Of a DNA stretch of 64,000 nt, positions 17,716 through 56,458 are shown one piece after another. Origin of the DNA: Escherichia phage phiWec181. Both the position numbers and the translations under genes were made by a program. The notes below the pieces were generated by a model, which was given only the letters and a program-made list of their open reading frames with translations, searched no databases and was not told the DNA's origin. Position 1 is the first letter of the stretch. The number at the start of each line of letters is the position of its first letter. The stretch lies in sequence record LC739534.1; one strand, given 5' to 3'.

Positions 17716-17817
17716 TTACTTAGATGAGTCCAGAATATCTTTTACTTTGGCGATGATAACATCTTGATACTTATGGATGTGATATCCTACTACTAAACCT
17801 ACGATAAATGCAATCAT
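17716..17817 (-). CDS. small hydrophobic peptide (33 aa)
   Basis: MIAFIVGLVVGYHIHKYQ...; SD GGAGAAA upstream; TAATG overlap with upstream gene; not in ORF track. Confidence 0.3.
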   Translation of the reverse strand: MIAFIVGLVVGYHIHKYQDVIIAKVKDILDSSK

Positions 17818-18416
17818 TATTTTCTCCTATTTTGCTCGAATGTAGCTTGTGTCGGTATGTCAAACCAGTGGAAGTAACCTTTTTGTTGGGGTGCGATGCT
17901 GGTGCCAGTTGCCACAGCCAACACATCCACACTGATACCTATCTGATCATCTTCTACCGTATAATCCGAGGACCATAATTTAACAGTCAACGGTGTCTTT
18001 CCGACGAGGAAGTGAAGTCCTGCGTTTCCCCAGAGATTCACTTCAATCGCCTCGTCTTGAGATACATCTTGCTCTACTTCCTGTAGTTTGTCAAACACTT
18101 TCTGCACATCTTTTGGGTTAAGACGGATACTGTGCAGATAGTCAAACATGTTCACAAAATCTTGTGCTCGTTTTGTGTTTTTGGATACAGGATGAAGACA
18201 GTGTGGCACTAACGGCGACACACGAATATACCCTCCATCATCGTACCAACGCACAATAAACACGTCTCGACTTGGCTGACGATCTTTTGCTAAGATCGTA
18301 ACTTCTTGACCCTCTTCAATAGATGGGTAGTCTGGATCATACGCTGATGCACCATAGACCAAAGCTACGTGTCCAACATCCAAAGGTGTTTTTCCGTCCC
18401 AATAATTTGTTTCCAT
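17817..18416 (-). CDS. hypothetical protein (199 aa)
   Basis: SD AGGAGGGG upstream. Confidence 0.55.
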   Translation of the reverse strand: METNYWDGKTPLDVGHVALVYGASAYDPDYPSIEEGQEVTILAKDRQPSRDVFIVRWYDDGGYIRVSPLVPHCLHPVSKNTKRAQDFVNMFDYLHSIRLNPKDVQKVFDKLQEVEQDVSQDEAIEVNLWGNAGLHFLVGKTPLTVKLWSSDYTVEDDQIGISVDVLAVATGTSIAPQQKGYFHWFDIPTQATFEQNRRK

Positions 18417-18425
18417 TTTCCCCTC

Positions 18426-18689
18426 CTAAATAAGATCTGTGAAGTAGTGAATAACTTCAATATTATGGAAAAGCGTTTTACGCTCTTTTGTGTATTCTGT
18501 TGTCGTGACAGTTACCTTCGCCACCCCAAAATCTTTCATAGGGAACGTGGGTGCCTCTTTCAGGATATTATGTACTGTTTGGATGGCTTCAAATTCTGTC
18601 TCCCAGTAACTGAAGTAACCTTCGTCATCCGTGACGAGATTCTTGCCTTCCAAGTTCACGAAACAATAAAACTCTCGCGGTGTTGTCAT
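18426..18689 (-). CDS. hypothetical protein (87 aa)
   Basis: SD GAAGGTGG upstream; ATGA overlap with upstream small ORF. Confidence 0.5.
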   Translation of the reverse strand: MTTPREFYCFVNLEGKNLVTDDEGYFSYWETEFEAIQTVHNILKEAPTFPMKDFGVAKVTVTTTEYTKERKTLFHNIEVIHYFTDLI

Positions 18690-18844
18690 TCCACCTTCTC
18701 CAAAGCTTTCTTGAAGAATGTAGCATGTAACAGATGGCCCTCTGTATCAAACCATGTCACTTTACAGGAGTCCCCGTAGTCCTCTGTGACGGTCATGATA
18801 ACAGCTTCCCCACGTAAGGTTACAACATCGCCTACTGTAATCAT
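18686..18844 (-). CDS. small protein (52 aa)
   Basis: SD CCGGAGGA upstream; ATGA overlaps at both ends; not in ORF track. Confidence 0.4.
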   Translation of the reverse strand: MITVGDVVTLRGEAVIMTVTEDYGDSCKVTWFDTEGHLLHATFFKKALEKVE

Positions 18845-19287
18845 AAATCCTCCGGTGTACCAGCACGTAAAGCAGCTAAAGGTTCGGCTACAGCTTCCAG
18901 GGCGGCTTCAATTTGATCTTCAATCACATCACGAACCATTGCAATACGCTCATCAATATGCACAACGAAAGCATCGCTATAAGCACCAACTAACGTATTG
19001 TAAAATGTTTCTTGTGCGCTTAACGCGCCGCTAAGAATGAAATTACGTTGATCTTCAGGTAGTTGTTGGTGCTCTTCATATTTGGCAAACGTTTCACGGT
19101 TGATTTCCAACAGAGTCCCCATCATAAGGTCAAACTGCAAATCTTTGTCCGAGGGATTTCCCATTACAATGGTATTGTAAATGTTCAGCAAGCTGGTGCT
19201 AACACGAGCATTGTTTTCTACACCTTCCATCTGACGGAAAATAGTTAACACATCAATAGTTTCTTCAATCTTTTCGTTTTGGTTCAT
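18841..19287 (-). CDS. hypothetical protein (148 aa)
   Basis: SD AGAGGAGAA upstream. Confidence 0.55.
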   Translation of the reverse strand: MNQNEKIEETIDVLTIFRQMEGVENNARVSTSLLNIYNTIVMGNPSDKDLQFDLMMGTLLEINRETFAKYEEHQQLPEDQRNFILSGALSAQETFYNTLVGAYSDAFVVHIDERIAMVRDVIEDQIEAALEAVAEPLAALRAGTPEDL

Positions 19288-19459
19288 ATACGTTCTCCTC
19301 TATTATTGGAAGATATCCTGTAGTTTTACAGGGATTGCACTCATAAAGCTGGCCTACATCAACCATAACGTAGCCTAAACCTCCACAATATGGACACTCC
19401 ATAGGGGTACAAGGTACAGGTGTTGTTACGGTTACATCCACAACACGGGCAATTCTCAT
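19265..19459 (-). CDS. small Cys-rich protein (64 aa), putative zinc-binding
   Basis: CPYCGG...CNPC Cys pairs; SD AGGAGA upstream of ATG 19459. Confidence 0.45.
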   Translation of the reverse strand: MRIARVVDVTVTTPVPCTPMECPYCGGLGYVMVDVGQLYECNPCKTTGYLPIIEENVYEPKRKD

Positions 19460-19683
19460 TCCCATTCTCCTATAAGCTGGGGATTCAAGGCGAATTGTGA
19501 CATACGTTCAGTGGGAGAGTATAAGTACGGAGGTGTAATTTGCTCCAGCACCTTAGCTGCACGTACTTCATCTTCCACATCAATATGGAAACCACGTTCC
19601 ATAGTTAATACGCCATGATCATTAAGAAGGAATAGAGATTCTACTCCATCTACCTTATCAATTGCAACATAAAGTTTAGTCAT
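19456..19683 (-). CDS. small protein, paralog family H
   Basis: SD GGAGAT upstream of ATG 19683; C-terminus FALNPQLIGEWE matches next gene. Confidence 0.45.
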   Translation of the reverse strand: MTKLYVAIDKVDGVESLFLLNDHGVLTMERGFHIDVEDEVRAAKVLEQITPPYLYSPTERMSQFALNPQLIGEWE

Positions 19684-19693
19684 ATTATCTCCA

Positions 19694-19909
19694 TTACCAT
19701 TCGGCAATCAGTTGAGGTTTGACAGCAAAAGCTTGAAAGGTTGTAATATCATAAAGAAAGACATTAGTCGCCTCTTTCAGCTTAGTTGTCATGCCAGCCT
19801 TAGTTTCTCCGTTCCACGGGAAGATAGCAACACCTTGCTCTCCAACTAACCACCAGTGGTAATTGCCGTCACGAAGATCTTTTGCTTTATAAAGATAATT
19901 AGTAATCAT
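19694..19909 (-). CDS. small protein, paralog family H
   Basis: C-terminus FAVKPQLIAEW; start set at ATG 19909 (SD GGGAGA) rather than ORF-track 19999. Confidence 0.4.
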   Translation of the reverse strand: MITNYLYKAKDLRDGNYHWWLVGEQGVAIFPWNGETKAGMTTKLKEATNVFLYDITTFQAFAVKPQLIAEW

Positions 19910-20072
19910 TGCCACGTTTCTCCCATCTTTGCATCGCCTGTAACCAGCCCTCGGCTCTTTCCCTGGTTTCGAAGTAGACAGGAATACCCGTCCCTGCAAA
20001 TGTGACCCACCAAGTGAAGATCCACCAACCTGTTTTTATGCGATATCCTGTTTCATATTCGACCACTTTCAT
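19899..20072 (-). CDS. small Trp-rich protein (57 aa)
   Basis: MKVVEYETGYRIKTGWWIFTWW...; SD AAAGGTGA upstream; explains the N-terminal part of track ORF 19694..19999 in another frame. Confidence 0.4.
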   Translation of the reverse strand: MKVVEYETGYRIKTGWWIFTWWVTFAGTGIPVYFETRERAEGWLQAMQRWEKRGNDY

Positions 20073-20262: not shown

Positions 20263-20427
20263 TCATCTTATGGCTACAAGATAGAAACATAGAACACATC
20301 CAACCACACTTACTAAGAAACTGACATAAACAACAAACCTGTTATCGTCCACAATAGCCACAGCTAATGCGGCAGATGTTATCAGGAAAAGAACCATCAA
20401 CAGAATATCCCTGTTTACTGCATCCAT
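20263..20427 (-). CDS. small membrane protein (54 aa)
   Basis: Hydrophobic MDAVNRDILLMVLFLITSAALAVAIV...; strong SD AGGAGGTG upstream; not in ORF track. Confidence 0.45.
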   Translation of the reverse strand: MDAVNRDILLMVLFLITSAALAVAIVDDNRFVVYVSFLVSVVGCVLCFYLVAIR

Positions 20428-20556
20428 AGACACCTCCTCTTGTTAGTTACAGAGAGTATAATACCGGAACGTTACGATTACAACTACGAAGAACGGGTGA
20501 TTTTTGATTGATAGGTAGGACTTATCTGAAAGGAATAATTGATAGGGAACGCTGTA

Positions 20557-40605: not shown

Positions 40606-40725
40606 TTAAAATAGTGTGCCGATGGAAGATAGCAGGTCACTAATAACCAGGACCAGATCTACTATCACATATCTAATCAGGAAGGGGATTAGCGCCAGCG
40701 TCGCTACTATGATCCCCATTGTCAT
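40606..40725 (-). CDS. small hydrophobic peptide (39 aa)
   Basis: MTMGIIVATLALIPFLIRYVIVDLVLV...; SD GAGAAAGG upstream; not in ORF track. Confidence 0.4.
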   Translation of the reverse strand: MTMGIIVATLALIPFLIRYVIVDLVLVISDLLSSIGTLF

Positions 40726-40736
40726 GATTACCTTTC

Positions 40737-41027
40737 TCATTGTTGGCGGTTTACATAAGCTTTACCGTTTACGGTCATCGGTATGGCCTCAAGGTCTGGA
40801 TCTTCCTTAAGGTCGCGTGCAAGCTCACCGCACCGGACACCCTCGAATCCGTGGTATTCTGTTTCCCCGTTCTTAAAAGTTTTAGCGGCAAGGCATAGGC
40901 GATAATTAACACCGATCCGGTTTACTGCGTTGATATCGGTTAACGTGATCGATTCCGGCAAATCGTTAGCCATTACAGGCGCGTTAATACCAACAACCAG
41001 GGCAACTACTGCGATCATCTTTTTCAT
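40737..41027 (-). CDS. small secreted protein (96 aa) with signal peptide
   Basis: MKKMIAVVALVVGINAPVMA signal-like N-terminus; SD GGAAGAGGA upstream. Confidence 0.5.
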   Translation of the reverse strand: MKKMIAVVALVVGINAPVMANDLPESITLTDINAVNRIGVNYRLCLAAKTFKNGETEYHGFEGVRCGELARDLKEDPDLEAIPMTVNGKAYVNRQQ

Positions 41028-42125: not shown

Positions 42126-42230
42126 TTAACCGATACCGTGGGAAGATAGGATCATATTAGCCATAGTTGCAACCACTCCAACCGATAACGCCAGGCCAAC
42201 TACTGCAACCGTGAAAATTTTCTCTAACAT
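42126..42230 (-). CDS. small hydrophobic peptide (34 aa)
   Basis: MLEKIFTVAVVGLALSVGVVATMANMILSSHGIG; SD GAGGGTAG upstream; C-terminus resembles 40606..40725 peptide; not in ORF track. Confidence 0.4.
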   Translation of the reverse strand: MLEKIFTVAVVGLALSVGVVATMANMILSSHGIG

Positions 42231-42248
42231 GATGCTACCCTCATTAAT

Positions 42249-42310
42249 GGGCGTTGCCTTATTGCCCCGCCCTACGTAATACAGTTTACCCGATTTATAA
42301 TTGTTGTCAA
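42249..42310 (-). promoter_or_regulatory. PeSL-like cassette, hairpin class V
   Basis: TTGACA, 16 nt, TAAACT, 10 nt, GC hairpin GGGCG...CGCCC, then small ORF 42126..42230. Confidence 0.45.
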
Positions 42311-44410: not shown

Positions 44411-44530
44411 TTATAAGATGATTGATAAGATAGTGATAACGAAAGCGATAACACCAACGGCGATCGTAGTCTTACGCCCTTCGGATACTGCCGGATTCTC
44501 TACCGTGTATTCTACTGTGTATTTGTTCAT
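44411..44530 (-). CDS. small hydrophobic peptide (39 aa)
   Basis: MNKYTVEYTVENPAVSEGRKTTIAVGVIAFVITILSIIL; SD AGAGGATAA upstream; not in ORF track. Confidence 0.4.
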   Translation of the reverse strand: MNKYTVEYTVENPAVSEGRKTTIAVGVIAFVITILSIIL

Positions 44531-45731: not shown

Positions 45732-45748
45732 CTACTTTTAAAAACTTT

Positions 45749-46401: not shown

Positions 46402-46479
46402 GATGTTTTCCTCTTTGTGTTTTTCGTTTTGATTAGTTGATAATACAGCAATTCGCAGATTAGTCTTTAGCAATTCATG

Positions 46480-46698: not shown

Positions 46699-46766
46699 TT
46701 TCTTTCTCTCTTTGTGGTGATTGGTTTCTCTTCTCTATAGCGCCCATTATAAGGCGCTATAACGAA

Positions 46767-46934: not shown

Positions 46935-46957
46935 AAGTAATCATGATGTTTTCCTCT

Positions 46958-47020
46958 TCTCTTTGTTAGGCGGTGGACCATTCCGCCGCCTTGATGTAAT
47001 ACAGTTTACTCTATTTTTAT
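46958..47020 (-). promoter_or_regulatory. PeSL-like cassette, hairpin class II
   Basis: TTGCAA, 16 nt, TAAACT, ~11 nt, GGCGGCGGA-ATGG-TCCACCGCC hairpin. Confidence 0.5.
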
Positions 47021-47165
47021 TTCTTTGCAACTACTTTTATATTTTCTTTCTTTGCCTCTTCCACCTGGTCCGCCCACTGCTTACCCCACGTTTGAGCGTT
47101 ATAGTGATATTGACAAAGAGCAACACCACGTTTTAAACCAGCGATAGACTTTTTACCACATTGAC
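47007..47165 (-). CDS. small Cys-containing protein (52 aa)
   Basis: MKTCQCGKKSIAGLKRGVALCQYHY...; SD TAAGGGA upstream; overlaps -35 of downstream cassette; not in ORF track. Confidence 0.4.
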
Positions 47166-47186
47166 AAGTTTTCATTTTGTGATCCC

Positions 47187-47399
47187 TTAGTTGATGATAG
47201 TCAGTGTAAAATTATAATCACCATTCTTATATAACACCATATTACCGAAGGTGCCGACTCGACGCATATCCATACGGATACCTATAACATCTTTAACGTC
47301 TTTAATGTTTTTAACGCCCGTGATATCTTTATTAAAATATTCCTCGTCTGAAAATAAAACTTGACTTGCATTTTTTAACAGTGTGCGGATATTAGCCAT
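47187..47399 (-). CDS. hypothetical protein (70 aa)
   Basis: Purine-rich AGAAGAGAGA upstream. Confidence 0.5.
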   Translation of the reverse strand: MANIRTLLKNASQVLFSDEEYFNKDITGVKNIKDVKDVIGIRMDMRRVGTFGNMVLYKNGDYNFTLTIIN

Positions 47400-47422
47400 C
47401 GTGATAATCTCTCTTCTGTTGT

Positions 47423-47480
47423 GAGCGGCACCATTGCCGCCCTACGTAATACAGTTTACTCTTTTTCTTTCCGGTGTCAA
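47423..47480 (-). promoter_or_regulatory. PeSL-like cassette, hairpin class I
   Basis: TTGACA, 16 nt, TAAACT, 10 nt, GGCGGCA-ATGG-TGCCGCT hairpin, then CDS 47187..47399. Confidence 0.5.
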
Positions 47481-47488
47481 CAATCTTT

Positions 47489-47716
47489 TTAGATTAATTC
47501 GTCCAGGCATAACAGGCGATCAACGTTGAGATCGGTCAGGCTGATGGTTGGCACCTGATAAGATTCGATGTACTCGACGCTTGCATATTCCCCAAAGTTA
47601 GCAATAGCCCACTTATTCAAGATCTCACATACATCATTAATCTTTTTGTTTGTTACAACTGCAATAACCTGGGAAGTGCCAACGGTGCCGGATACGCGAA
47701 CAATATTGATAGCCAT
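47489..47716 (-). CDS. hypothetical protein (75 aa)
   Basis: SD AGAAGAGAGAAAA upstream. Confidence 0.5.
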   Translation of the reverse strand: MAINIVRVSGTVGTSQVIAVVTNKKINDVCEILNKWAIANFGEYASVEYIESYQVPTISLTDLNVDRLLCLDELI

Positions 47717-47735
47717 GATTTTTCTCTCTTCTGTT

Positions 47736-47794
47736 AGGCGGGGCGCTTGTCGCCCCTATGTGATACATCTTACACTAATTTAAAACTTTGTCAA
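47736..47794 (-). promoter_or_regulatory. PeSL-like cassette, hairpin class III
   Basis: TTGACA, TAAGAT -10, GGGGCG-ACAAG-CGCCCC hairpin, then CDS 47489..47716. Confidence 0.5.
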
Positions 47795-47795
47795 A

Positions 47796-47876
47796 TTATT
47801 TTCTATTTCTTCCGTAATAGCCCAATTTATGATCTAAGCTAAAACGTTTTGTGAGATAGGTCGAACGATGTTTCAT
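47796..47876 (-). CDS. tiny basic peptide (26 aa), speculative
   Basis: MKHRSTYLTKRFSLDHKLGYYGRNRK; SD AAAGGAGAC upstream; may be spurious. Confidence 0.25.
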   Translation of the reverse strand: MKHRSTYLTKRFSLDHKLGYYGRNRK

Positions 47877-47889
47877 TTTTATGTCTCCT

Positions 47890-48129
47890 TTACATTCCAA
47901 CCATAGCGGCGCGGATCGCGGTAGTGCTATACTTGAAACCGTCTGGAGTTTTATCTTGTCCAGTCTGTTCCAGAAAGAGCATCATATCACGCGCCGCATC
48001 GTTACGGTTAGAATTATAACTAATAAATTCTTTCGCGGTGCGGTATAATGATTCATCGTTATTAATCCAAAGGCTTACATTCCAATGAGTTTTGTTTTTG
48101 TGACCTAAGAACATTTTTGATTTAGCCAT
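47890..48129 (-). CDS. hypothetical protein (79 aa)
   Basis: SD AAAAAGAGA upstream. Confidence 0.5.
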   Translation of the reverse strand: MAKSKMFLGHKNKTHWNVSLWINNDESLYRTAKEFISYNSNRNDAARDMMLFLEQTGQDKTPDGFKYSTTAIRAAMVGM

Positions 48130-48150
48130 GATGTTAATCTCTTTTTCAGT

Positions 48151-48212
48151 GAGGCGGGAACTATTCCCGCGCCCTATGTAATACAGTTTACTCTTTTTAT
48201 TCGTGCTGTCAA
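48151..48212 (-). promoter_or_regulatory. PeSL-like cassette, hairpin class IV
   Basis: TTGACA, TAAACT -10, GCGGGAA-TAG-TTCCCGC hairpin, then CDS 47890..48129. Confidence 0.5.
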
Positions 48213-48218
48213 TGCTTT

Positions 48219-48572
48219 TTATAAATCTTTTTTACGTTTTACATCGCTTGCATGACTGTATACAGCGATCCCATTATCACGACAAAAACGGGTAAGGTAT
48301 GATCCGCGTGAAAACTCTTTCCCTTCCAGGTCAACAACCTTGCTAAATTCTTCCAGGGCAACGGTATCAAAATGATCACCATAACCATATTGAAACGGCA
48401 CGTTAACAACTTCAATCAATTTACCGCCGATCTCAACGTCCACGCTTAAAGAAAAATATGTGTTACCGTAGGACTGTTGAAACCAGCGACGGGCGCTAAT
48501 GTGAACGGCTTCAATCTCACCAATTTTAAATTGAGTGTTACCCAGGATCGCAACGTTGATATTTTTAGCCAT
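48219..48572 (-). CDS. hypothetical protein (117 aa)
   Basis: SD AAAGAGAGAAAA upstream. Confidence 0.5.
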   Translation of the reverse strand: MAKNINVAILGNTQFKIGEIEAVHISARRWFQQSYGNTYFSLSVDVEIGGKLIEVVNVPFQYGYGDHFDTVALEEFSKVVDLEGKEFSRGSYLTRFCRDNGIAVYSHASDVKRKKDL

Positions 48573-48597
48573 GATTTTTTCTCTCTTTTTGGTTAGT

Positions 48598-48649
48598 GGG
48601 AAGTGTTCCCGATAAAAGTTATTATGCTTATACTATCGTTTTTTGTCAA
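48598..48649 (-). promoter_or_regulatory. PeSL-like cassette, hairpin class IV
   Basis: TTGACA, 17 nt, CATAAT, 10 nt, GGGAAC-ACT-TCCC hairpin, then CDS 48219..48572. Confidence 0.45.
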
Positions 48650-48668
48650 TAGTATAAGACTAAAACTT

Positions 48669-48848
48669 TTAACGATAATCATCGTAGGCTTTATTAACCT
48701 GGCGAATATAACATTCGAAAGCGAGATCAATAGAATCATATTCCCGCACATAATCCCCGTAAGAAACTACATACACACCTTTTTGATCCTCAAACGTCAT
48801 GATGATAGAATCCAGGCCGATGATTTCAGTTTTAGCGATGATAGTCAT
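48669..48848 (-). CDS. hypothetical protein (59 aa)
   Basis: MTIIAKTEIIGLDSIIMTFEDQKGVYVVSYGDYV...; SD AAAAAGGT upstream; not in ORF track. Confidence 0.45.
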   Translation of the reverse strand: MTIIAKTEIIGLDSIIMTFEDQKGVYVVSYGDYVREYDSIDLAFECYIRQVNKAYDDYR

Positions 48849-48867
48849 AATAATAACCTTTTTATTG

Positions 48868-48926
48868 TTGGCGGCACCATTGCCGCCCTACGTGATAAAC
48901 TATACCAGAATTTTAAACAGTGTCAA
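48868..48926 (-). promoter_or_regulatory. PeSL-like cassette, hairpin class I
   Basis: TTGACA, TAnnnT -10, GGCGGCA-ATGG-TGCCGCC hairpin, then CDS 48669..48848. Confidence 0.5.
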
Positions 48927-48936
48927 ACGTTTTTTC

Positions 48937-49182
48937 TTAGTTTGCGAAATATGGCGCGGCGGCTGATGCCGTTAATCTCCAAGTGATTTGGCTATCGATC
49001 AAGTATTCTTCATTCTTGATCCGCACGGTATCAATCGAGAAGTTACTGAAAGGCTTGCTCTTGATTTTACGAACAACCGTTACACGACGGTTATTTTTCA
49101 TCTCTTTTAACTGAATCCAGGCGTAACCTTTTTCATTGACAAATATTTCATTGTGATTGGTGATAGATGATAAGTGTTTCAT
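48937..49182 (-). CDS. hypothetical protein (81 aa)
   Basis: SD AGAAGAGAGAAAA upstream. Confidence 0.5.
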   Translation of the reverse strand: MKHLSSITNHNEIFVNEKGYAWIQLKEMKNNRRVTVVRKIKSKPFSNFSIDTVRIKNEEYLIDSQITWRLTASAAAPYFAN

Positions 49183-49203
49183 GATTTTTCTCTCTTCTGT
49201 TTT

Positions 49204-49265
49204 GAGCGGTGGACCATTCCGCCGCCCTATGTGTTACATCTTACTACTTTTTTAAACATTGTCAA
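49204..49265 (-). promoter_or_regulatory. PeSL-like cassette, hairpin class II
   Basis: TTGACA, TAAGAT -10, GGCGGCGGA-ATGG-TCCACCGC hairpin, then CDS 48937..49182. Confidence 0.5.
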
Positions 49266-49273
49266 GGATATTT

Positions 49274-49555
49274 TTAACTATATGATCCACATCGTTCGCA
49301 GTAGTGATCATCGTCGTCATCTGCTACCTGGCTGATAAAATGATCTACCTTTGCTTTCAAATTATTATAATTGCTTTCTACTTCCTGTAGTCGTCGTTGG
49401 TAGTATTCCAGGGCTTGCACATAGGCCATTTGTTCGGTTTTAGCTTGCATAGCTAAATTCATGCCACGCGTTTCATCGTATAACCAATAACCATCATTAC
49501 ATTCACTAATAGATAGTGTAGGGCTTAGTTTTTCGTGACGGATAACCTTGCTCAT
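49274..49555 (-). CDS. hypothetical protein (93 aa), coiled-coil-like with C-terminal CxxC
   Basis: SD TAAGGGG upstream; ends ...HYCERCGSYS. Confidence 0.5.
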   Translation of the reverse strand: MSKVIRHEKLSPTLSISECNDGYWLYDETRGMNLAMQAKTEQMAYVQALEYYQRRLQEVESNYNNLKAKVDHFISQVADDDDDHYCERCGSYS

Positions 49556-49565
49556 AGTGTGCCCC

Positions 49566-49676
49566 TTACTTCAAAATGATTGTTGTGATAACTGCTACGG
49601 TGATCCAGAATGGAACAACTAAGATAATAGCGTTAATCGTTCCAACTGTCAAACTATTTTCTTTCTTGATCATCAT
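49566..49676 (-). CDS. small hydrophobic peptide (36 aa)
   Basis: MMIKKENSLTVGTINAIILVVPFWITVAVITTIILK; SD AAGGAAAAC upstream; in frame with track ORF 49566..49799, whose N-terminal extension is rejected. Confidence 0.4.
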   Translation of the reverse strand: MMIKKENSLTVGTINAIILVVPFWITVAVITTIILK

Positions 49677-49683
49677 GTTTTCC

Positions 49684-49767
49684 TTACAGTGTCCAAAGAA
49701 TGATTTCAAGTGCAGCACGGAAACCAGGAATAAAATTGATTGCAAAAAACAGGGAAGTAGTAAACAT
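49684..49767 (-). CDS. small hydrophobic peptide (27 aa)
   Basis: MFTTSLFFAINFIPGFRAALEIILWTL; SD GAAAGGATAG upstream; not in ORF track. Confidence 0.35.
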   Translation of the reverse strand: MFTTSLFFAINFIPGFRAALEIILWTL

Positions 49768-49786
49768 TTTTCTATCCTTTCAGTTG

Positions 49787-49845
49787 TGAGCGGCACCATT
49801 GCCGCCTGATGAGTTAACTATAAGGGATCACGTTTTACCTGTCAA
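49787..49845 (-). promoter_or_regulatory. PeSL-like cassette, hairpin class I
   Basis: TTGACA, TAnnnT -10, GGCGGCA-ATGG-TGCCGCT hairpin, then the two small hydrophobic peptide ORFs. Confidence 0.5.
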
Positions 49846-50399
49846 CCTAAATCATCAAAATAAAGATAATTTTTTTCGGCTTCTTTCTTCTCTTCCTGTG
49901 ATGCCTCAAAGACTGGGAGAAAGTGATCAAAGGCGACGCACTCAACCGCTTGATCGTCTTCCTCTTCCTGGTCTTCCTCCTGGGCTATGGCTGCAATTTT
50001 GGCTAATTTCCTTTCAGCCTGGATCAGCTTACCATCTAAAACGCTTTTAGCGGTGCTGTACGCCGTCCAAGTGATGCGCTTACTTTCCAGCGCGGCATCA
50101 AGCGCCGCTATCTTGCTGGGGTATTCATCCAGGACACGAAAAGCCGGATCTACCTTGTACAGCGGATTATCTTTCGCGCCGTCGCTATCATCTGCGGCGC
50201 TTGCAATGTCAGCGTTACCATTCGCCAGCCAACCAGGGCGATCGCTGCGTGTTTTGGTATTCCCATGACTACGCGCCGATCTGTTGCCTACTTGCTCGCC
50301 ACTATAGCCAGGAGCATGATCGATCATGTCGTCCGGTATAATGCGCGGATCATTAACGTCATGTTTTACCCAGGACTGGATCACATATTCGCGCCCCAT
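49842..50399 (-). CDS. hypothetical protein (185 aa), acidic C-terminus
   Basis: SD AAAAGGGGTG upstream. Confidence 0.55.
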   Translation of the reverse strand: MGREYVIQSWVKHDVNDPRIIPDDMIDHAPGYSGEQVGNRSARSHGNTKTRSDRPGWLANGNADIASAADDSDGAKDNPLYKVDPAFRVLDEYPSKIAALDAALESKRITWTAYSTAKSVLDGKLIQAERKLAKIAAIAQEEDQEEEDDQAVECVAFDHFLPVFEASQEEKKEAEKNYLYFDDLG

Positions 50400-50659
50400 T
50401 ATACACCCCTTTTAACAATCATTTCACACACAAGAAATAAGCTGGCGGAATCACGGCAAGGATAGAAAGATGTACGATAATCTCTCACCCCTGCTTTTAT
50501 GATCTCCGTGGTTTTACCTGATAGCACATTGTAAATAGTGTAACTTGTCGGACTGTTTTTATATACCTTGCCAGGGTAGATCATAACATAACGAGCAAGG
50601 TTATAAAATTCCTCGTTACGAAAGGCTATGATCTTCCCGCATACCTTAAGAAAGTGCAC
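50399..50659 (-). CDS. hypothetical protein (86 aa), GTG start
   Basis: GTG preceded by TAAGGGGGG at 6 nt; start overlaps downstream gene stop. Confidence 0.45.
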   Translation of the reverse strand: MHFLKVCGKIIAFRNEEFYNLARYVMIYPGKVYKNSPTSYTIYNVLSGKTTEIIKAGVRDYRTSFYPCRDSASLFLVCEMIVKRGV

Positions 50660-50669
50660 GTTAGCCCCC

Positions 50670-50942
50670 TTACAGCAAAAAGTTTACTTGTCTTGCTGTT
50701 AATGTAGTATCAACCATTTTCGGGCTTTTATAATTGACAAAACGCGCGGTTTTTTCAATAGCGAAGCCGAGATAATCTTGTTTGTTGAAATTACATTCTT
50801 TCTTAAATGTTTCCCGTGCAATGGCGATCGCTGCGTCCAGGGATAAACGCCCGTCAATATTGATATTTGCGAAAGATCCGCCACCGCTCATAGGTTTACC
50901 AGTGGTGCCCGTTACGATCATTGTTGCGCTATATGATGCCAT
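50670..50942 (-). CDS. hypothetical protein (90 aa)
   Basis: ATG 50942 preceded by AAGAGAGATTATC; ORF-track start 50978 would lie inside the hairpin cassette. Confidence 0.5.
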   Translation of the reverse strand: MASYSATMIVTGTTGKPMSGGGSFANINIDGRLSLDAAIAIARETFKKECNFNKQDYLGFAIEKTARFVNYKSPKMVDTTLTARQVNFLL

Positions 50943-50964
50943 GATGATAATCTCTCTTAGTTGT

Positions 50965-51026
50965 GAGCGGTGGACCATTCCGCCGCTCTACGTGATACAT
51001 CTTATCAGGTTGTTGCCTGTTGTCAA
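50965..51026 (-). promoter_or_regulatory. PeSL-like cassette, hairpin class II
   Basis: TTGACA, TAAGAT -10, AGCGGCGGA-ATGG-TCCACCGCT hairpin, then CDS 50670..50942. Confidence 0.5.
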
Positions 51027-51230: not shown

Positions 51231-51365
51231 GATCTTAACTCCAGGTGATGAATGATGTTTTTTGTTGGTTGACGGTGGATTATGGAGATCCTCACCTTTG
51301 CCCGTCCTGCATTGCGCCCTCCTGTTGTTTATTGTCGTTGTGCCTCGCCCCCCTCGACAAGATTA

Positions 51366-51394
51366 ATACTACGCTACCAGGTGCGGAACGTCAA
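51366..51394 (-). promoter_or_regulatory. sigma70-type promoter with long GC-rich leader
   Basis: Minus strand TTGACG, 17-nt spacer, TAGTAT; ~130-nt leader before CDS 51033..51230. Confidence 0.45.
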
Positions 51395-51504
51395 CGACTT
51401 TTTCAATCTTTTTTATTTTCTTTTTGCTTGCTATATATAAAGGAAAGGGCTATCATCTTTCTACCGCGCCAACCAGGGCGCACAACAGAAGAAAGGGCGA
51501 CACC

Positions 51505-51771
51505 ATGACAACTACTACATTACACCTTATGCACTCGTTAGGCTGGCAAGGCGGCACGGTCCACCAGGTAGCAAGCGCAACGGGCTTAAAGGTTGAAACA
51601 GTTCTCAACCTGGGCGATCATAAAGTGGAAGAGATAGACCATTTTGATCCGTTCGCTGATGGTTATCTCTGGGCTTGCAGTGGCGGCGGGGAAAGCAAGA
51701 TACCGCCAGCCGCGCGGGGCGATATGCATTTTTGGTTAGGTGTTCTCTCCTGGCAAGAAAACAAAAAATAA
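51505..51771 (+). CDS. hypothetical protein (88 aa) in GC-rich island, opposite strand to neighbours
   Basis: ATG 51505 preceded by GAAGAAAGGG; codon composition visibly more GC-rich than surrounding genes. Confidence 0.35.
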   Translation: MTTTTLHLMHSLGWQGGTVHQVASATGLKVETVLNLGDHKVEEIDHFDPFADGYLWACSGGGESKIPPAARGDMHFWLGVLSWQENKK

Positions 51772-51773
51772 TC

Positions 51774-51802
51774 TTGACAAGCCCAGGGATCGGGCTTATA
51801 CT
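51774..51802 (+). promoter_or_regulatory. near-consensus sigma70 promoter on + strand with no downstream SD-led ORF
   Basis: TTGACA, exactly 17-nt spacer, TATACT; downstream ~150 nt GC-rich with no convincing ORF. Confidence 0.5.
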
Positions 51803-52025
51803 GTTTTACATACAGAAGAGGAAGCGCCACCCCACGGCGTAAAGGCGGGGCTAACATACCAGGGGCACTGGTTGGAAGGTCGATCGCCGGGAGGCTGGGC
51901 GCTATATATTTGTAAAGAAATGTAAAGATAAAATAATCGCTTGCTTTCCTGGCTGGATCTGTTATTCTTATTACATGGCGAGGGGACACGGGAGCGCGAG
52001 ACAATCACCGGACCTGCCCGTCATT

Positions 52026-52140
52026 CTGCAAATGAGAAAAATTCTCATTTGCAAATAAGACTCATTCGCATTTAATAATTGAATGAGAATCATTCTCATT
52101 CTCATTCGTATTTCGATTTTAAGTGAGAATAATTCTCATT
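52026..52140. promoter_or_regulatory. three palindromic operator-like sites (AATGAGAAT-n-ATTCTCATT), Fur-box-like
   Basis: 27-bp perfect palindrome TGCAAATGAGAA-AAA-TTCTCATTTGCA at 52026..52052; further copies at 52082..52100 and 52121..52140. Confidence 0.45.
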
Positions 52141-52152
52141 TCGGTAATTTTC

Positions 52153-52338
52153 ACGTAAACTTTAGAATTTGCTTTTCAACTTTCACTTTTGTAAAAGCAA
52201 AAAAACTTTAAATACCTGGTGCGCGCGACTTTTTAAAAAATTTTTCTCGGTTTTTTGCTTTGAAATCTGGCCCACCAATTTGAGATAGTGTACGTAAACT
52301 TTAGAATTTGGTTTTGGATTCTCACTTTTGTAAACTCG
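52153..52338. repeat. pair of ~46-bp direct repeats in non-coding DNA
   Basis: ACGTAAACTTTAGAATTTG(C/G)TTTT...TTCTCACTTTTGTAAA at 52153..52198 and 52292..52338; TTGAGATAGT also repeated. Confidence 0.45.
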
Positions 52339-52483
52339 TAAAAAGTTTAAATAATTGTAGGGATTTTGAGATAGTTTGCTTGTAAGGTTTGAGATAATCC
52401 TTCCCGAAGATGTTACGCAGCCTACAGCCTACCTGAATGCTCGTCTAACGAGATTAACTCTAAAAGATGAGTGTTGGTGTAGC

Positions 52484-52521
52484 TAAAGAGAAAAGGCTCT
52501 CTACGGTGTTGTAGGAGCCTT
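52484..52521 (-). terminator. rho-independent terminator after NADAR gene
   Basis: AAGGCTC-N15-GAGCCTT hairpin followed by TTTTCTCTTT on minus strand. Confidence 0.45.
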
Positions 52522-52591
52522 ATTTCTGTGGCACAAAGTTGACGTATTCTTTTTAAAAACGAATTTTTTCAAAATATCACGAATATCGCCT

Positions 52592-54679: not shown

Positions 54680-54716
54680 CCCCCCTACAACAAATGCCCC
54701 TTGCGGGGCATCTTTA

Positions 54717-55856
54717 TTAGAACACGCTACTTAAGGTTGCAGATCGTGTAGTGGTTGGTTCCAGAACCACACGGAACGTATCCCCAGGTTTATCGCTCAC
54801 TACTACAATCTTACCACCTTCGATCAGGTCACACTTCAAACCTTCGGCAGTAGCTTTCAGGTCGATGCGTGGATCGCCATCATCATCCAGGATAACGTAG
54901 CTGCTATCTTCGAGAGGCTCCAGTTCTTCGTCTTTCACGGCTTCCAGGTAGATGTTCAGTTCACATGCACCAGACAAGAACTTGGTAGGAGTGAACTCAT
55001 GCCAGTTGTTGACCCAGTTAGGCTTGATAGCTTTACCGTTGACAACAATAGAGCTAATCGTCCAGCGTGCATCGTTACCCAGAGAGATACCCATCATCTC
55101 CAGACAGGTCTTGAACGTCATTTTCGGATAGAAGTTTAACTCTTCTACGATCCCTTGAATAACATCGAAAGACAGTTCAGTGCTAACATCCCACAAACGT
55201 TGGAAGCTTTCAACATGTTTGCGATTCTTCAGATTCTTGTCCAGGTAGTCCAGCATAGTTTCAATAGACAGTTTGTCGTAGTTGAAGCTATAGAAGATAC
55301 GGCTCGGACGGTTGACGAAGTATTCCGAGATGTATCCGCTGTTCTTTGTCAGCATGAACAGTTTGTTACCGCTACCTGTGCCATCCAGCAGAGTCAGCAG
55401 TGCTTCCTGATCTTCCTTCTTGGAATACACTTTGTCGAACTCATCGAACAGTACTACTGCGCGTTCAGAGATCTTACTCATGAACTCCAGGAAATTGGCA
55501 TCAGAATATGGCTGCGTTACCAGAATAGTTGGGATTCCCAGGTCTTCCGCTTCCAACAGAGTGTTACTGATCAGTTTTGCCAGCATTGTCTTGCCACTGC
55601 CTTTTGTACCCGACAACAGGACACCTGTGTTCTTACCTTCTTTACTACGACGAGCGAAGGTACGGATAACGTGGGCTGCACGTTCTTTGGTTTCCCCGTA
55701 CAGGCGATCAGGAATCGTGAACTTATCAGCGCGACTAAGAGAATAGTTACCATGTGGATCACAATTGACAGTCCAAACGCCAGCGGGGAGTTTATCAACC
55801 TCTACACCAAAATCTTTATTAACAATTGCAACATCCCCATAAACTGTGTATTTCAT
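54717..55856 (-). CDS. AAA+ family ATPase
   Basis: Walker A GTKGSGKT and Walker B VVLFDEFD; SD AGAGGAGAAAG upstream. Confidence 0.7.
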   Translation of the reverse strand: MKYTVYGDVAIVNKDFGVEVDKLPAGVWTVNCDPHGNYSLSRADKFTIPDRLYGETKERAAHVIRTFARRSKEGKNTGVLLSGTKGSGKTMLAKLISNTLLEAEDLGIPTILVTQPYSDANFLEFMSKISERAVVLFDEFDKVYSKKEDQEALLTLLDGTGSGNKLFMLTKNSGYISEYFVNRPSRIFYSFNYDKLSIETMLDYLDKNLKNRKHVESFQRLWDVSTELSFDVIQGIVEELNFYPKMTFKTCLEMMGISLGNDARWTISSIVVNGKAIKPNWVNNWHEFTPTKFLSGACELNIYLEAVKDEELEPLEDSSYVILDDDGDPRIDLKATAEGLKCDLIEGGKIVVVSDKPGDTFRVVLEPTTTRSATLSSVF

Positions 55857-55879
55857 TTACTTTCTCCTCTTCTGTTGGA

Positions 55880-55916
55880 ATAGACGTATTATCTCTTGTC
55901 TAATACGTCTTGTCAA
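55880..55916 (-). promoter_or_regulatory. sigma70-type promoter overlapped by 10-bp inverted repeat (operator-like)
   Basis: TTGACA, 17 nt, GATAAT; inverted repeat AGACGTATTA / TAATACGTCT spans the spacer and -10. Confidence 0.45.
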
Positions 55917-55924
55917 TACTTGTT

Positions 55925-56284
55925 TTAGATCCCTTCGCCTTTAGTGATGATAGCTTCCATCACCACAGCTTTCTTCTTACGTTGAACATCTTGACGGATC
56001 AGGAGGCTACCACCTTGATCATCCTTATACTGCTTCATGATGATGAAGTTGTTGCCACACACAGCGCCGATAGCCACGTATGGGCGATTAGAATTATCCA
56101 CATCCGCAGATGGGGTTACATCCGTGCAAGTAAAGAACTTGCCATCAGGATCAGTATAAGCAAAGTGGCCTTTAGCAGTTACTGCAACTTCTCCGGTGCT
56201 TGTGGACTGTGCAGCCACAAACGGTGCAGCAGATGCTACGAAACTTGCAGACAGCAGGGCTACAGCTAAAATAATCTTTTTCAT
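55925..56284 (-). CDS. secreted protein (119 aa) with signal peptide
   Basis: MKKIILAVALLSASFVASAAPFVAA signal-like N-terminus; SD AAGAGGAGA upstream. Confidence 0.55.
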   Translation of the reverse strand: MKKIILAVALLSASFVASAAPFVAAQSTSTGEVAVTAKGHFAYTDPDGKFFTCTDVTPSADVDNSNRPYVAIGAVCGNNFIIMKQYKDDQGGSLLIRQDVQRKKKAVVMEAIITKGEGI

Positions 56285-56296
56285 GGTGATCTCCTC

Positions 56297-56458
56297 TTAT
56301 TCCAACAACATACACAATGCAGCTACAACCAAGAACAGAGTAGCCACGCTTAAAGCGATAAACATTCCTAATTGAGAATGAAATTCGCCTATGATAGGTG
56401 CAGACAACGCACTTAGCAAACAACCTGTCAAACTTGCTTTGATAATAAGATCTAACAT
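56297..56458 (-). CDS. small membrane protein (53 aa)
   Basis: Two hydrophobic segments; strong SD TAGGAGGTAAT upstream; not in ORF track. Confidence 0.45.
   Translation of the reverse strand: MLDLIIKASLTGCLLSALSAPIIGEFHSQLGMFIALSVATLFLVVAALCMLLE

What the first reader, a model, noticed from the sequence alone, without database searches (positions are those of the whole stretch)
17716..56458. Numerous tiny hydrophobic-peptide genes missed by the 60-aa ORF cut-off
At least nine ORFs of 27-57 aa with strong SD sequences encode single- or double-helix hydrophobic peptides (17716..17817, 20263..20427, 40606..40725, 42126..42230, 44411..44530, 49566..49676, 49684..49767, 56297..56458, and the Trp-rich 19899..20072). 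Several pairs share C-terminal motifs and many sit first after a cassette promoter. They could be membrane-targeted host-takeover peptides or translational-coupling leaders.
Basis: seen in the sequence. Interest (0 to 1): 0.5.

Follow-up and report, generated by a model that had tools for sequence, protein, structure and literature searches.

The report
Tiny phage membrane-peptide genes, mostly catalogued
The tiny hydrophobic reading frames are nearly all genuine, conserved small-protein genes in the early region of an E. coli phage. They are already listed as "hypothetical" or "membrane" proteins in related phage genomes, so the finding is real but ordinary.

Summary
The window is Escherichia phage phiWec186 (Phapecoctavirus). 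All nine ORFs exist, on the minus strand.

- **Well supported:** six ORFs (stop ends at 17716, 40606, 42126, 44411, 49566, 56297) keep their length in 70-183 related phage genomes, in up to three genera. Their substitutions favour third codon positions (pooled 99/56/141, p=1e-8). pN/pS is 0.25-0.52 in frame and 0.7-2.3 out of frame.
- **Also coding:** 20263 and 19899 are rarer accessory genes. 19899 is soluble, not hydrophobic.
- **Untestable:** 49684 (27 aa) occurs only in five near-identical genomes.
- **Already in databases:** four of the nine are annotated in the GenBank record. Five match PHROG families. Every well-supported one is annotated in some relative.
- **Corrections:** the 40606 ORF starts at 40740 (44 aa, ATGA overlap with the upstream gene). 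The 49566 ORF starts at 49673.
- **Addition:** a conserved, never-annotated 20-aa ORF lies at 30569-30631.
- **Leader-peptide reading:** disfavoured. Downstream partners vary between phages, and some peptides are the only ORF behind their own promoter.
- **Most likely role:** small inner-membrane proteins made early from host-type promoters. Their targets are unknown.

The parts
17716..17817 (-). c1: 33-aa ORF MIAFIVGLVVGYHIHKYQDVIIAKVKDILDSSK. It has a short N-terminal hydrophobic stretch with a conserved GxxxG, then a charged helix. Its start overlaps the stop of the 199-aa upstream gene (TAATG).
   Evidence: There are full-length tblastn matches in 126 phage records at 61-100% identity. It is 33-34 aa in Phapecoctavirus and Justusliebigvirus with a conserved GGAG SD. 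Variable sites by codon position are 10/5/24 and pN/pS is 0.26. It matches phrog_11666 at E=6e-10. It is annotated as phAPEC8_0067 and YP_009984991.1 in relatives but not in LC739535.
19899..20072 (-). c9: 57-aa Trp-rich soluble protein. It is not hydrophobic.
   Evidence: GRAVY is -0.64. It is annotated as BDU12774.1. 54 phage records match; the Justusliebigvirus homologue is Phi92_gp021 at about 36% identity. The match to phrog_15964 is weak (E=2e-3).
20263..20427 (-). c2: 54-aa protein with two hydrophobic segments (residues 7-27 and 30-54). It has the strongest SD of the set (GAGGAGG, -13.3 kcal/mol). It is a rare accessory gene.
   Evidence: It is annotated as BDU12775.1. Only two homologous clusters (81-91% identity, both 54 aa) exist among 5.8 billion proteins, and they sit in the same context on phage contigs. 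Against the more distant variant there are 31 nucleotide differences, distributed 8/4/19 by codon position, and the length is preserved. It has no PHROG or Pfam family.
It fills the 80-nt gap between two genes. Its stop TAG overlaps the SD (TAGGAGG) of the downstream 148-aa gene.
   Evidence: It is found by the same criteria as the others. It is exactly 20 aa and ends in YE* in nepoznato, phiWec188, DIJ07P1 and Schickermooser (MFEIIFFTVCIFLLGSLVYE). It is unannotated in every annotated record inspected (DIJ07P1 carries no annotation at all). There are too few variants for a selection test.
40606..40740 (-). c3L: 44-aa single-pass peptide MRKVIMTMGIIVATLALIPFLIRYVIVDLVLVISDLLSSIGTLF. Its ATG overlaps the TGA of the upstream 96-aa signal-peptide protein (ATGA). 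A 63-aa gene follows 9 nt later.
Evidence: 161 phage records match, including rV5. It matches phrog_16005 at E=3e-20 over 1-44 of a 44-position profile. pN/pS is 0.39 in frame against 0.74 and 2.02 out of frame. It is not annotated in LC739535. It is precisely absent from one Vequintavirus locus, L007.
42126..42230 (-). c4: 34-aa single-pass peptide MLEKIFTVAVVGLALSVGVVATMANMILSSHGIG. It is the first ORF after a cassette promoter (42310-42283).
   Evidence: 156 phage records give full-length matches. It is exactly 34 aa in three genera, with a conserved C-terminal ATM(A/S)N(M/A)ILSS(H/N)GIG. It matches phrog_14631 at E=9e-22 over 34/34 positions. pN/pS is 0.39. The downstream partner differs between phages: a 128-aa gene or an unrelated 71-aa gene. 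It is not annotated in LC739535.
44411..44530 (-). c5: 39-aa tail-anchored-type peptide MNKYTVEYTVENPAVSEGRKTTIAVGVIAFVITILSIIL, with the hydrophobic segment at residues 20-39. It is the first ORF after a weaker cassette promoter (44610-44583).
   Evidence: It is annotated as BDU12845.1 and as 'membrane protein' in RefSeq relatives. 183 records match at a tblastn E-value limit of 1, and the weakest of these are marginal. It matches phrog_10979 'membrane protein' at E=9e-20. It is 39 aa in Justusliebigvirus too. pN/pS is 0.52. It stands alone in its cassette in L015.
49566..49673 (-). c6: 35-aa single-pass peptide MIKKENSLTVGTINAIILVVPFWITVAVITTIILK. The conserved start is the second ATG. A 93-aa gene follows 10 nt later.
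   Evidence: 110 records match the query in all, about 105 of them only from the ATG of c6 onward, while the upstream sequence differs. It is 31-35 aa in 11 nucleotide variants. Variable sites by codon position are 5/3/13 and pN/pS is 0.25. It is annotated in nepoznato (QHR65602.1) and Ro121c4YLVW (YP_009985065.1). It has no PHROG family. It is the sole ORF of its own promoter cassette in five loci.
49684..49767 (-). c7: 27-aa ORF MFTTSLFFAINFIPGFRAALEIILWTL. It is the first ORF after promoter 49845-49817. Its stop TAA overlaps the SD of c6. Its status is unresolved.
   Evidence: It is found in only five near-identical records. It is identical in phiWec190 and has one nonsynonymous change in PsgM04F. 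It is below Prodigal's usual minimum gene length (my own knowledge). The overlapping 77-aa frame (49566-49799) is annotated instead in PsgM04F, but that frame starts inside the leader hairpin without an SD.
56297..56458 (-). c8: 53-aa hydrophobic protein, probably with two membrane helices. It has a strong SD (TAGGAGG). A 119-aa signal-peptide protein follows 12 nt later.
   Evidence: It is annotated as BDU12873.1. 70 records match, mostly at about 47% identity and full length. It matches phrog_27459 at E=1e-11. pN/pS is 0.42. The neighbouring protein has a signal-peptide-like N-terminus.
57320..57493 (-). A further annotated 57-aa protein with two hydrophobic segments.
   Evidence: It is annotated in LC739535. 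Its hydrophobic segments are at residues 5-29 and 36-50. Homologues of 58 aa occur in five Phapecoctavirus loci.
42243..42310 (-). An example of the repeated cassette head that precedes c4, c5 and c7. It consists of a sigma-70-type promoter TTGACA-16-TAAACT and then a GC-rich 5' leader hairpin.
   Evidence: About 22 such minus-strand promoters lie between 38.6 and 51.4 kb, with leaders of 45-55 nt. 19 of these leaders contain a hairpin of -11 to -16 kcal/mol, with several compensating stem variants.

Best explanation
**Shown.** The window is the early, small-gene arm of the virulent E. coli myovirus phiWec186 (Phapecoctavirus). At least eight of the nine listed ORFs, and one extra 20-aa ORF, are bona fide protein-coding genes. 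Their frame, length, start and stop are conserved across related phages. Their substitution pattern is that of translated sequence under purifying selection.

**Shown.** Seven to nine of them consist almost entirely of one or two hydrophobic helices with a short polar end.

**Inferred.** They are made early from host sigma-70 promoters. Translation would start either from their own SD or by coupling to the neighbouring cistron (TAATG or ATGA overlaps; stop codons embedded in the next SD). They then insert into the host inner membrane.

**Inferred, with low certainty on the target.** Each acts as a small membrane protein that binds or perturbs a host envelope component. Possible targets include a transporter, a sensor, a division or defence protein, or a superinfection route. 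Conserved small-xxx-small helix-packing motifs fit this (GLVVG in c1, GIIVA in c3L, GTINA in c6). So does the pairing of c3L and c8 with exported proteins.

**Shown.** They are exchangeable cassette cargo and not fixed leaders of one gene. None of the well-supported ones is new to databases: they belong to PHROG families or are annotated as hypothetical or membrane proteins in relatives.
For: - **Identity of the window:** it is 100% identical to LC739535.
- **Conservation breadth:** c1 is in 126 records, c3L in 161, c4 in 156, c5 in 183, c8 in 70, c9 in 54 and c6 in about 105.
- **Length and boundaries:** ORF length, start and stop are conserved across Phapecoctavirus, Justusliebigvirus and Vequintavirus loci.
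- **Selection:** pN/pS is 0.25-0.52 in frame against 0.7-2.3 in the two other frames, which are full of stops. Pooled variable sites by codon position are 99/56/141, chi-square p=1.1e-8. For c2 the split is 8/4/19.
- **Family matches:** full-length PHROG matches for c1, c3L, c4, c5 and c8.
- **Hydrophobic segments:**
- **Enrichment over background ORFs:** Fisher p=1.5e-4.
- **Promoters:** consensus sigma-70 promoters with hairpin leaders.
- **Cassette behaviour:** downstream partners vary and some cassettes stand alone.
- **Prior description:** the rV5 paper describes the homologous arm as 88 mainly small ORFs with consensus E. coli promoters (PMC3606486).
Against: - There is no expression, localisation or phenotype data for any of these peptides.
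- The relatives sample few independent lineages, and pN/pS was pooled over non-independent pairs without a tree.
- For c4 and c5 alone the codon-position bias is not significant (p=0.056 and p=0.10).
- c7 cannot be tested, and n1 rests on five variants.
- c1's hydrophobic stretch (12 residues) is short for a membrane span.
- c9 is not a membrane peptide at all.
- Part of c6's conservation could be at the nucleotide level: a promoter-like TTGAC(A/G)-17-TATNNT with invariant third positions.
- No curated family suggests a function (Pfam, NCBIfam and PADLOC).
Confidence: 0.72

Rival explanations
1. Translational-coupling leaders. On this reading the short ORFs exist mainly so that ribosomes translating them deliver themselves to, or unfold, the start of the next gene. 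That gene often has only a weak SD overlapping the peptide's stop. The peptide product would be irrelevant.
For: - Stops overlap the next SD (TAAGGTG, TAAGGGG, TAGGAGG) with gaps of 8-14 nt.
- c4, c5 and c7 are the first ORF after a promoter.
- c1 and c3L overlap the upstream stop.
- The 3' ends and junctions of c5 and c6 are 26/32 nt identical.
Against: - There is amino-acid-level constraint and exact length conservation across genera.
- The same peptide precedes unrelated genes in different phages. c6 (five loci) and c5 (one locus) are the only ORF of their own promoter cassette.
- Unrelated peptides are all consistently hydrophobic. Coupling alone does not require that.
Confidence: 0.12
2. 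Membrane-damaging effectors. On this reading the peptides are small toxins of the type I toxin, holin or antiholin kind. They would depolarise or permeabilise the host membrane to shut the host off or to time lysis, and would not bind specific partners.
For: - Their size and composition resemble Ibs, TisB or Hok-class peptides (my own knowledge). Examples are n1 (20 aa) and c4 to c6 (34-39 aa).
- c1 has a sub-threshold hit to a holin PHROG (phrog_24402, E=0.079).
- c2 has sub-threshold hits to 2TM effector models (SLATT_4 E=0.045; PADLOC 2TM effector E=0.028).
Against: - No match reaches any curated cut-off.
- The genes lie in the early arm behind constitutive-type host promoters. That is an unlikely position for lysis timing.
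- No endolysin context was seen, although the neighbours are all annotated only as hypothetical proteins.
Confidence: 0.1
3. Chance or non-coding. On this reading some of the ORFs are open by accident within regulatory DNA, such as leaders or cassette joints, and are conserved only because the DNA or RNA element is. This applies chiefly to c7 (49684-49767).
For: - c7 occurs only in five near-identical genomes. Its single substitution is nonsynonymous for c7 but synonymous in the overlapping 77-aa frame.
- c6 carries a promoter-like motif with invariant synonymous sites.
- n1, c2 and c7 gave no informative pN/pS contrast between frames.
Against: - For the other eight listed ORFs the third-position bias, the stop-free frame against stop-rich alternative frames, and cross-genus length conservation argue for coding.
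- c7 has a correctly spaced SD (AAAGGA, 7 nt), while the alternative 77-aa frame starts inside a hairpin with no SD.
Confidence: 0.06

Closest known systems
Catalogued small hypothetical or membrane proteins of rV5-like and phAPEC8-like phages: PHROG families phrog_11666, 16005, 14631, 10979 and 27459; phAPEC8_0067; Phi92_gp021; nepoznato_153
   Same: They are direct sequence homologues. Profile matches are full length, the lengths are the same and the genome position is the same.
   Different: Nothing substantive differs. In the phiWec186 record itself five of them were left unannotated. c2, c6, c7 and n1 have no PHROG family.
Small phage gene families found by large-scale comparative genomics (Fremin et al. 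2022, Cell Rep 39:110984). The paper was not held here. It is cited in the reference list of PMC11364881; its content is from my own knowledge.
   Same: The phenomenon is the same: many conserved phage genes of fewer than 50 codons, under-called by gene finders, and a sizeable share predicted to be transmembrane.
   Different: That work is a catalogue across metagenomes. Whether these particular families are in it was not checked.
Hyperplastic-region ORFan cassettes flanked by PeSL elements in T4-type phages (Arbiol et al. 2010, PMC2839356; PMC4122927)
   Same: Both have arrays of small non-essential early genes. Each gene sits behind a repeated strong sigma-70-type promoter with an adjacent GC-rich stem-loop. 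Cassettes are gained, lost or re-partnered between close relatives.
   Different: Here the stem-loop lies about 10 nt downstream of the -10 hexamer, so it is in the 5' leader. It has no U-tract, so it is not an obvious terminator. Recombination at these repeats was not demonstrated. The phage lineage is different.
Bacterial small inner-membrane regulators such as AcrZ, MgrB, MgtS, PmrR and SgrT (my own knowledge of the E. coli and Salmonella small-protein literature)
   Same: They are 20-55 aa, single-helix, and act by binding larger membrane proteins. This is the proposed mode of action.
   Different: There is no sequence similarity. These peptides are phage-encoded, and no partner is known.
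Type I toxins and phage holins or antiholins
   Same: They are similar in size and hydrophobicity.
   Different: No match is above threshold. No antisense RNA or lysis-cassette context was examined or seen.

Membership tests
PHROG small-protein families (phrog_11666, 16005, 14631, 10979, 27459) | Significant full-length match to the family profile | tested here: met
   c1 6e-10, c3L 3e-20 (1-44 of 44), c4 9e-22 (34 of 34), c5 9e-20 (39 of 39), c8 1e-11. There is no family for c2, c6, c7 or n1, and c9 matches only weakly (2e-3).
Protein-coding gene (as opposed to a chance ORF) | Frame, length and boundaries conserved in diverged relatives, with an excess of third-position or synonymous change | tested here: met
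   Met for c1, c3L, c4, c5, c6 and c8 and for c2. c9 has a 36%-identical annotated homologue. n1 conserves its length but has few variants. c7 is inconclusive.
Small integral membrane proteins | A hydrophobic segment long enough to span a bilayer (about 18 residues or more) | tested here: met
   A Kyte-Doolittle scan finds segments of 20-41 residues in c2, c3L, c4, c5, c6, c8 and n1. It is not met by c9. It is borderline for c1 (12 residues) and c7.
Small integral membrane proteins | Actual membrane localisation of the product | not testable with these tools
   This requires tagging and fractionation.
Leader peptides / coupling uORFs | Tight spacing or overlap with the downstream cistron | tested here: met
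   Gaps are 8-14 nt and the stop lies inside the next SD.
Leader peptides / coupling uORFs | Fixed association with the regulated downstream gene | tested here: not met
   c4, c5 and c6 precede different genes, or no gene at all, in different phages.
Leader peptides / coupling uORFs | Peptide sequence itself unconstrained | tested here: not met
   pN/pS is 0.25-0.52 and motifs are conserved, for example ATMxNxILSSxGIG in c4.
Type I toxins (Hok, Ibs, Ldr, TisB, ShoB and similar) | Homology to a curated toxin family | tested here: not met
   No NCBIfam or Pfam match is near its cut-off.
Type I toxins (Hok, Ibs, Ldr, TisB, ShoB and similar) | A cis-encoded antisense RNA antitoxin, and toxicity on expression | not tested
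   Opposite-strand promoters were not analysed for this purpose. Toxicity needs an experiment.
Holins / antiholins | Homology to a holin family, or adjacency to an endolysin or spanin | tested here: not met
   The only hit is sub-threshold: c1 against phrog_24402 at E=0.079. The neighbours were not profiled for endolysins, and all are annotated as hypothetical.
PeSL-type regulatory cassettes (T4-type phages) | A repeated strong sigma-70-like promoter with an adjacent GC-rich stem-loop flanking small ORFans | tested here: met
   About 22 promoters and 19 hairpin leaders were found.
PeSL-type regulatory cassettes (T4-type phages) | The stem-loop acts as a terminator for upstream transcription and lies upstream of the promoter's AT-rich region | tested here: not met
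   The hairpin lies downstream of the -10 hexamer and lacks a U-tract. The PeSL layout is taken from PMC2839356.
PeSL-type regulatory cassettes (T4-type phages) | Recombination between the repeats (mini-circles, cassette exchange) | not testable with these tools
   There is only indirect support: mosaic presence/absence and re-partnering among relatives.

The most novel reading that the evidence does not exclude
The tiny hydrophobic peptides, including the 20-aa n1, could be a shuffled repertoire of early-expressed effectors. Each would dock by helix-helix packing onto a different host inner-membrane protein, such as a transporter, sensor, division, defence or receptor-maturation factor. They would be exchanged among three phage genera as promoter-hairpin cassettes through short conserved joints such as TCAATCATYYTATAAGGYGCACACYATG. 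Some cassettes would then be transcription units whose only product is a 31-35-aa membrane peptide.
Probability: 0.2. Interest if true: 0.55.

Novelty: already known. Interest (0 to 1): 0.22.

Why it matters
The practical value is for annotation. The phiWec186 record, and many sister records, omit five or six conserved genes. The start codons proposed for two of them need correcting.

Biologically, these peptides are plausible but uncharacterised modulators of the host envelope. They occur in phages used for therapy and in the BASEL-type collections. A handful of 20-44-aa conserved peptides with their own promoters would be cheap to synthesise and to screen for host targets.

Nothing here challenges current understanding. 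Under-annotation of small phage genes, and their frequent transmembrane nature, are established observations.

Tried and rejected
- **IMG/VR scan.** A scan with the neighbouring 199-aa protein returned only one close relative. I switched to GenBank phage records.
- **The 77-aa ORF 49566-49799.** This frame would fuse c6 with the sequence overlapping c7, and it is annotated in PsgM04F. I rejected it. Homologues in about 105 genomes begin at the c6 ATG. Its putative start lies in the leader hairpin without an SD, and that start is ACG followed by GTG in two relatives.
I rejected it because it is ATC in relatives.
- **Function from profiles.** Pfam, NCBIfam and PADLOC gave only sub-threshold noise: ZapG-like, SLATT_4, SecE, NprX.
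- **RNA families.** Rfam found nothing in the window.
- **The dw-ec record.** It is over-annotated with overlapping ORFs on both strands, so I did not use it as evidence of annotation.
- **Phage A73.** Its organisation differs and it contributed no orthologues.
- **Literature.** I found no transcriptomic, ribosome-profiling or functional data for these phages. Fremin et al. 2022 is not in the held library.
- **Structure prediction.** I did not attempt it. A helix model would not discriminate between the explanations.

Full report
**Identity of the window.** Bases 38000-50000 are 100% identical to Escherichia phage phiWec186 (LC739535.1; Phapecoctavirus, Stephanstirmvirinae). Window coordinate equals record coordinate minus 95882. 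From about 17.6 to 58.1 kb nearly all genes are on the minus strand, and the GC skew agrees. The record annotates 114 minus-strand CDS there, all as 'hypothetical protein', and 14 of them are shorter than 60 aa.

**Checking the observation.** All nine ORFs are present on the minus strand with ATG starts.
- Six are strongly hydrophobic: 20263, 40606, 42126, 44411, 49566 and 56297.
- 17716 has only a 12-residue hydrophobic N-terminus, and 49684 is moderate.
- 19899 is a soluble Trp-rich protein.
- Four of the nine are already annotated in the source record (19899, 20263, 44411, 56297). The other five are not.
- I used joint criteria of ATG start, SD energy of -4.9 kcal/mol or better, and a hydrophobic window of 2.4 or more. 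4 of 20 unannotated coding-strand gap ORFs qualify, against 1 of 226 background ORFs (Fisher p=1.5e-4).

**Comparative evidence.** I fetched syntenic DNA from the following relatives:
- Phapecoctavirus: Ro121c4YLVW, SKA64, DIJ07P1, DIJ07P2, dw-ec, phiWec188, phiWec190, nepoznato and Schickermooser;
- the unclassified 'Pseudomonas phage' PsgM04F, whose sequence here is Phapecoctavirus-like;
- Justusliebigvirus: phi92 and alia;
- Vequintavirus-like phages, and Logan metagenome contigs.

Orthologues found by tblastn were extended to their stops.
- c1 is 33-34 aa. c3 is exactly 135 nt. c4 is exactly 34 aa. c5 is 39 aa. c6 is 31-35 aa. c8 is 53-54 aa.
- Across the whole phage collection, full-length matches occur in 126 (c1), 161 (c3), 156 (c4), 183 (c5), 70 (c8) and 54 (c9) records. 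About 105 records carry c6.
- Pooled pairwise Nei-Gojobori pN/pS is 0.25-0.52 in the proposed frame. It is 0.7-2.3 in the two alternative frames, which also carry 7-46 stops.
- Variable sites by codon position, pooled over the six, are 99/56/141 (chi-square p=1.1e-8). Individually c1, c3, c6 and c8 are significant, and c4 and c5 are marginal.
- c2 has only two homologous clusters among 5.8 billion proteins. Its more distant variant differs at 31 sites distributed 8/4/19, with length preserved.
- These tests use few independent lineages and no tree. They are supportive, not definitive.

**Corrections to coordinates.**
An ATG 15 nt upstream (40740) is conserved and gives MRK-initiated 44-aa peptides. 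It overlaps the TGA of the upstream gene (ATGA) in this phage, or lies 2 nt after a TAA in relatives. It has no SD of its own. The PHROG profile for the family is 44 positions long and aligns 1-44.
- For c6 the first of the two ATGs is ACA, ACG or GCA in relatives, so the conserved start is 49673.

**The doubtful one.** c7 (49684-49767, 27 aa) exists only in phiWec179, 186, 188 and 190 and in 'Pseudomonas phage' PsgM04F. In those it is identical or differs by one nonsynonymous change. It has a well-spaced SD, and its stop overlaps the SD of c6, so it is plausible. But there is no diversity to test. The overlapping 77-aa frame annotated in PsgM04F starts within the leader hairpin with no SD, and I consider it less likely.

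**Already catalogued.**
- PHROGs contain c1 (phrog_11666), c3 (phrog_16005), c4 (phrog_14631), c5 (phrog_10979, labelled 'membrane protein') and c8 (phrog_27459).
- c1 is phAPEC8_0067 and YP_009984991.1.
- c6 is annotated in nepoznato and Ro121c4YLVW.
- c9 is a homologue of Phi92_gp021.
- Pfam, NCBIfam and PADLOC give nothing above cut-off.
- The rV5 genome paper already described the homologous arm as 88 mainly small ORFs with consensus E. coli promoters, and listed 15 transmembrane proteins in the rV5 proteome as a whole (PMC3606486).

**Anatomy and the leader-peptide question.** Between 38.6 and 51.4 kb there are about 22 minus-strand promoters of the form TTGACA-16/17-TAnnnT. Each is followed by a 45-55-nt leader, and 19 of these leaders begin with a GC-rich hairpin (-11 to -16 kcal/mol). 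The stems differ but compensate, for example GGGCGGCA/TGCCGCYC, GGGGCG/CGCCCC and GCGGGAA/TTCCCGC.
- c4, c5 and c7 are the first ORF behind such a promoter, and c6 is second. The other five listed ORFs are not behind one.
- The peptides' stops overlap the next gene's SD (TAAGGTG, TAAGGGG, TAGGAGG), with gaps of 8-14 nt. c1 and c3 overlap the upstream stop. So translational coupling is likely wherever a neighbour is present.
- However, c4 precedes either a 128-aa or an unrelated 71-aa gene.
- c5 precedes a 53/59-aa gene, or nothing.
- c6 precedes a 93-aa gene, a 63-aa gene, or nothing. It is the sole ORF of its cassette in five loci.
- Together with the amino-acid-level constraint, this argues that the peptides themselves are the functional product.
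- Only one pair shares a C-terminal motif. The 3' ends of c5 and c6 plus the junction are 26/32 nt identical. That looks like a shared cassette joint.

**Mechanism.** It is shown that these are conserved coding sequences, that they are hydrophobic, and that they sit in a host-type promoter context with coupling-type junctions. The rest is inferred, as follows.
- They are probably expressed early and insert into the inner membrane. Positive N-termini (MRK, MIKK, MLEK, EGRK) precede the helix, and acidic or polar C-termini follow it.
- They probably act through helix-helix contacts, given the conserved small-xxx-small motifs.
- c3 follows, and c8 precedes, a protein with a signal-peptide-like N-terminus. 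This points to the envelope as the site of action.
- The specific targets are unknown.

**Comparison with known systems.**
- The cassette architecture resembles the PeSL (promoter-early stem-loop) ORFan cassettes of T4-type phages (PMC2839356). Here, though, the hairpin lies downstream of the promoter and lacks a U-tract.
- The peptides resemble bacterial small membrane regulators and type I toxins in size only.

**Verdict.** But the well-supported ones are already in databases as hypothetical or membrane proteins, and the general phenomenon is well known. The modest new items are:
- five or six missing annotations in this record;
- two corrected start codons;
- the never-annotated 20-aa n1;
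- the demonstration that some peptides are stand-alone cassettes.

Noticed in passing
window 30569-30631 (-): A conserved 20-aa hydrophobic micro-ORF (MIEIIIFAALIIILGFLMYE) exactly fills an 80-nt intergenic gap. It is 20 aa and ends in YE* in four other Phapecoctavirus lineages. It is unannotated in every annotated record inspected. Its stop overlaps the SD of the downstream 148-aa gene.
   Followed up: yes
window 39874-51026 (-), e.g. 46112-46179: There are about 19 repeats of a cassette head. Each has a consensus sigma-70 promoter (TTGACA-16/17-TAnnnT) followed about 10 nt later by a GC-rich hairpin, often TAGGGCGGCAATGGTGCCGC, and then an SD. Different stems keep their pairing through compensatory changes. 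This is reminiscent of T4-type PeSL cassettes, but the hairpin is in the 5' leader and has no U-tract. It may act as an mRNA-stabilising 5' hairpin or as a recombination joint.
   Followed up: partly
window 49624-49652 (-), inside c6: A promoter-like TTGAC(A/G)-17-TAT(T/C)(A/T)T lies within the c6 coding sequence. It is conserved in all 11 nucleotide variants, and third positions are almost invariant across GTTGGAACGATTAACGCTAT. It could be an internal promoter for the downstream gene, or it could be coincidence.
   Followed up: partly
window 51231-52591 and 37081-38625: Two stretches of 1.4-1.5 kb carry no credible minus-strand genes, which parallels the 'non-coding' block reported in rV5. 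The first contains four copies of a 21-nt palindrome AATGAGAAnnATTCTCATT (52030-52141) and a 62-nt direct repeat (52153 and 52292). These look like iterons or operators, and the stretch could be an origin or a regulator-binding array. Rfam finds nothing there.
   Followed up: partly
window 40737-41027 (-) and 55925-56284 (-): The proteins adjacent to c3L (96 aa, MKKMIAVVALVVGINAPVMA...) and to c8 (119 aa, MKKIILAVALLSASFVASAA...) have signal-peptide-like N-termini. So two of the tiny membrane peptides are paired with exported proteins.
   Followed up: no
window 47796-47876 (-): An unannotated 26-aa basic ORF (MKHRSTYLTKRFSLDHKLGYYGRNRK) with a strong SD (AAAGGAG, -8.7 kcal/mol) lies in a 173-nt gap. 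It is not hydrophobic, and its conservation was not examined.
   Followed up: no
window 20428-20487 (-), upstream of c2: The 60 nt upstream of c2 differ at 1 position from the Logan phage contigs, while the c2 coding sequence differs at 31 of 162. This means either a mosaic boundary at the start codon or unusually fast evolution of c2.
   Followed up: no
window 40606-40740 vs locus L007 (Vequintavirus C12) 3412-3432: c3L is precisely absent from one Vequintavirus locus while both flanks align. This is a clean presence/absence polymorphism of a 44-codon gene.
   Followed up: partly
window 58669-64000: The GenBank record of phiWec186 ends at window position 58668, yet the window continues for 5.3 kb with plus-strand genes. 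The window therefore crosses the record's arbitrary linear ends, or comes from a permuted copy.
   Followed up: no
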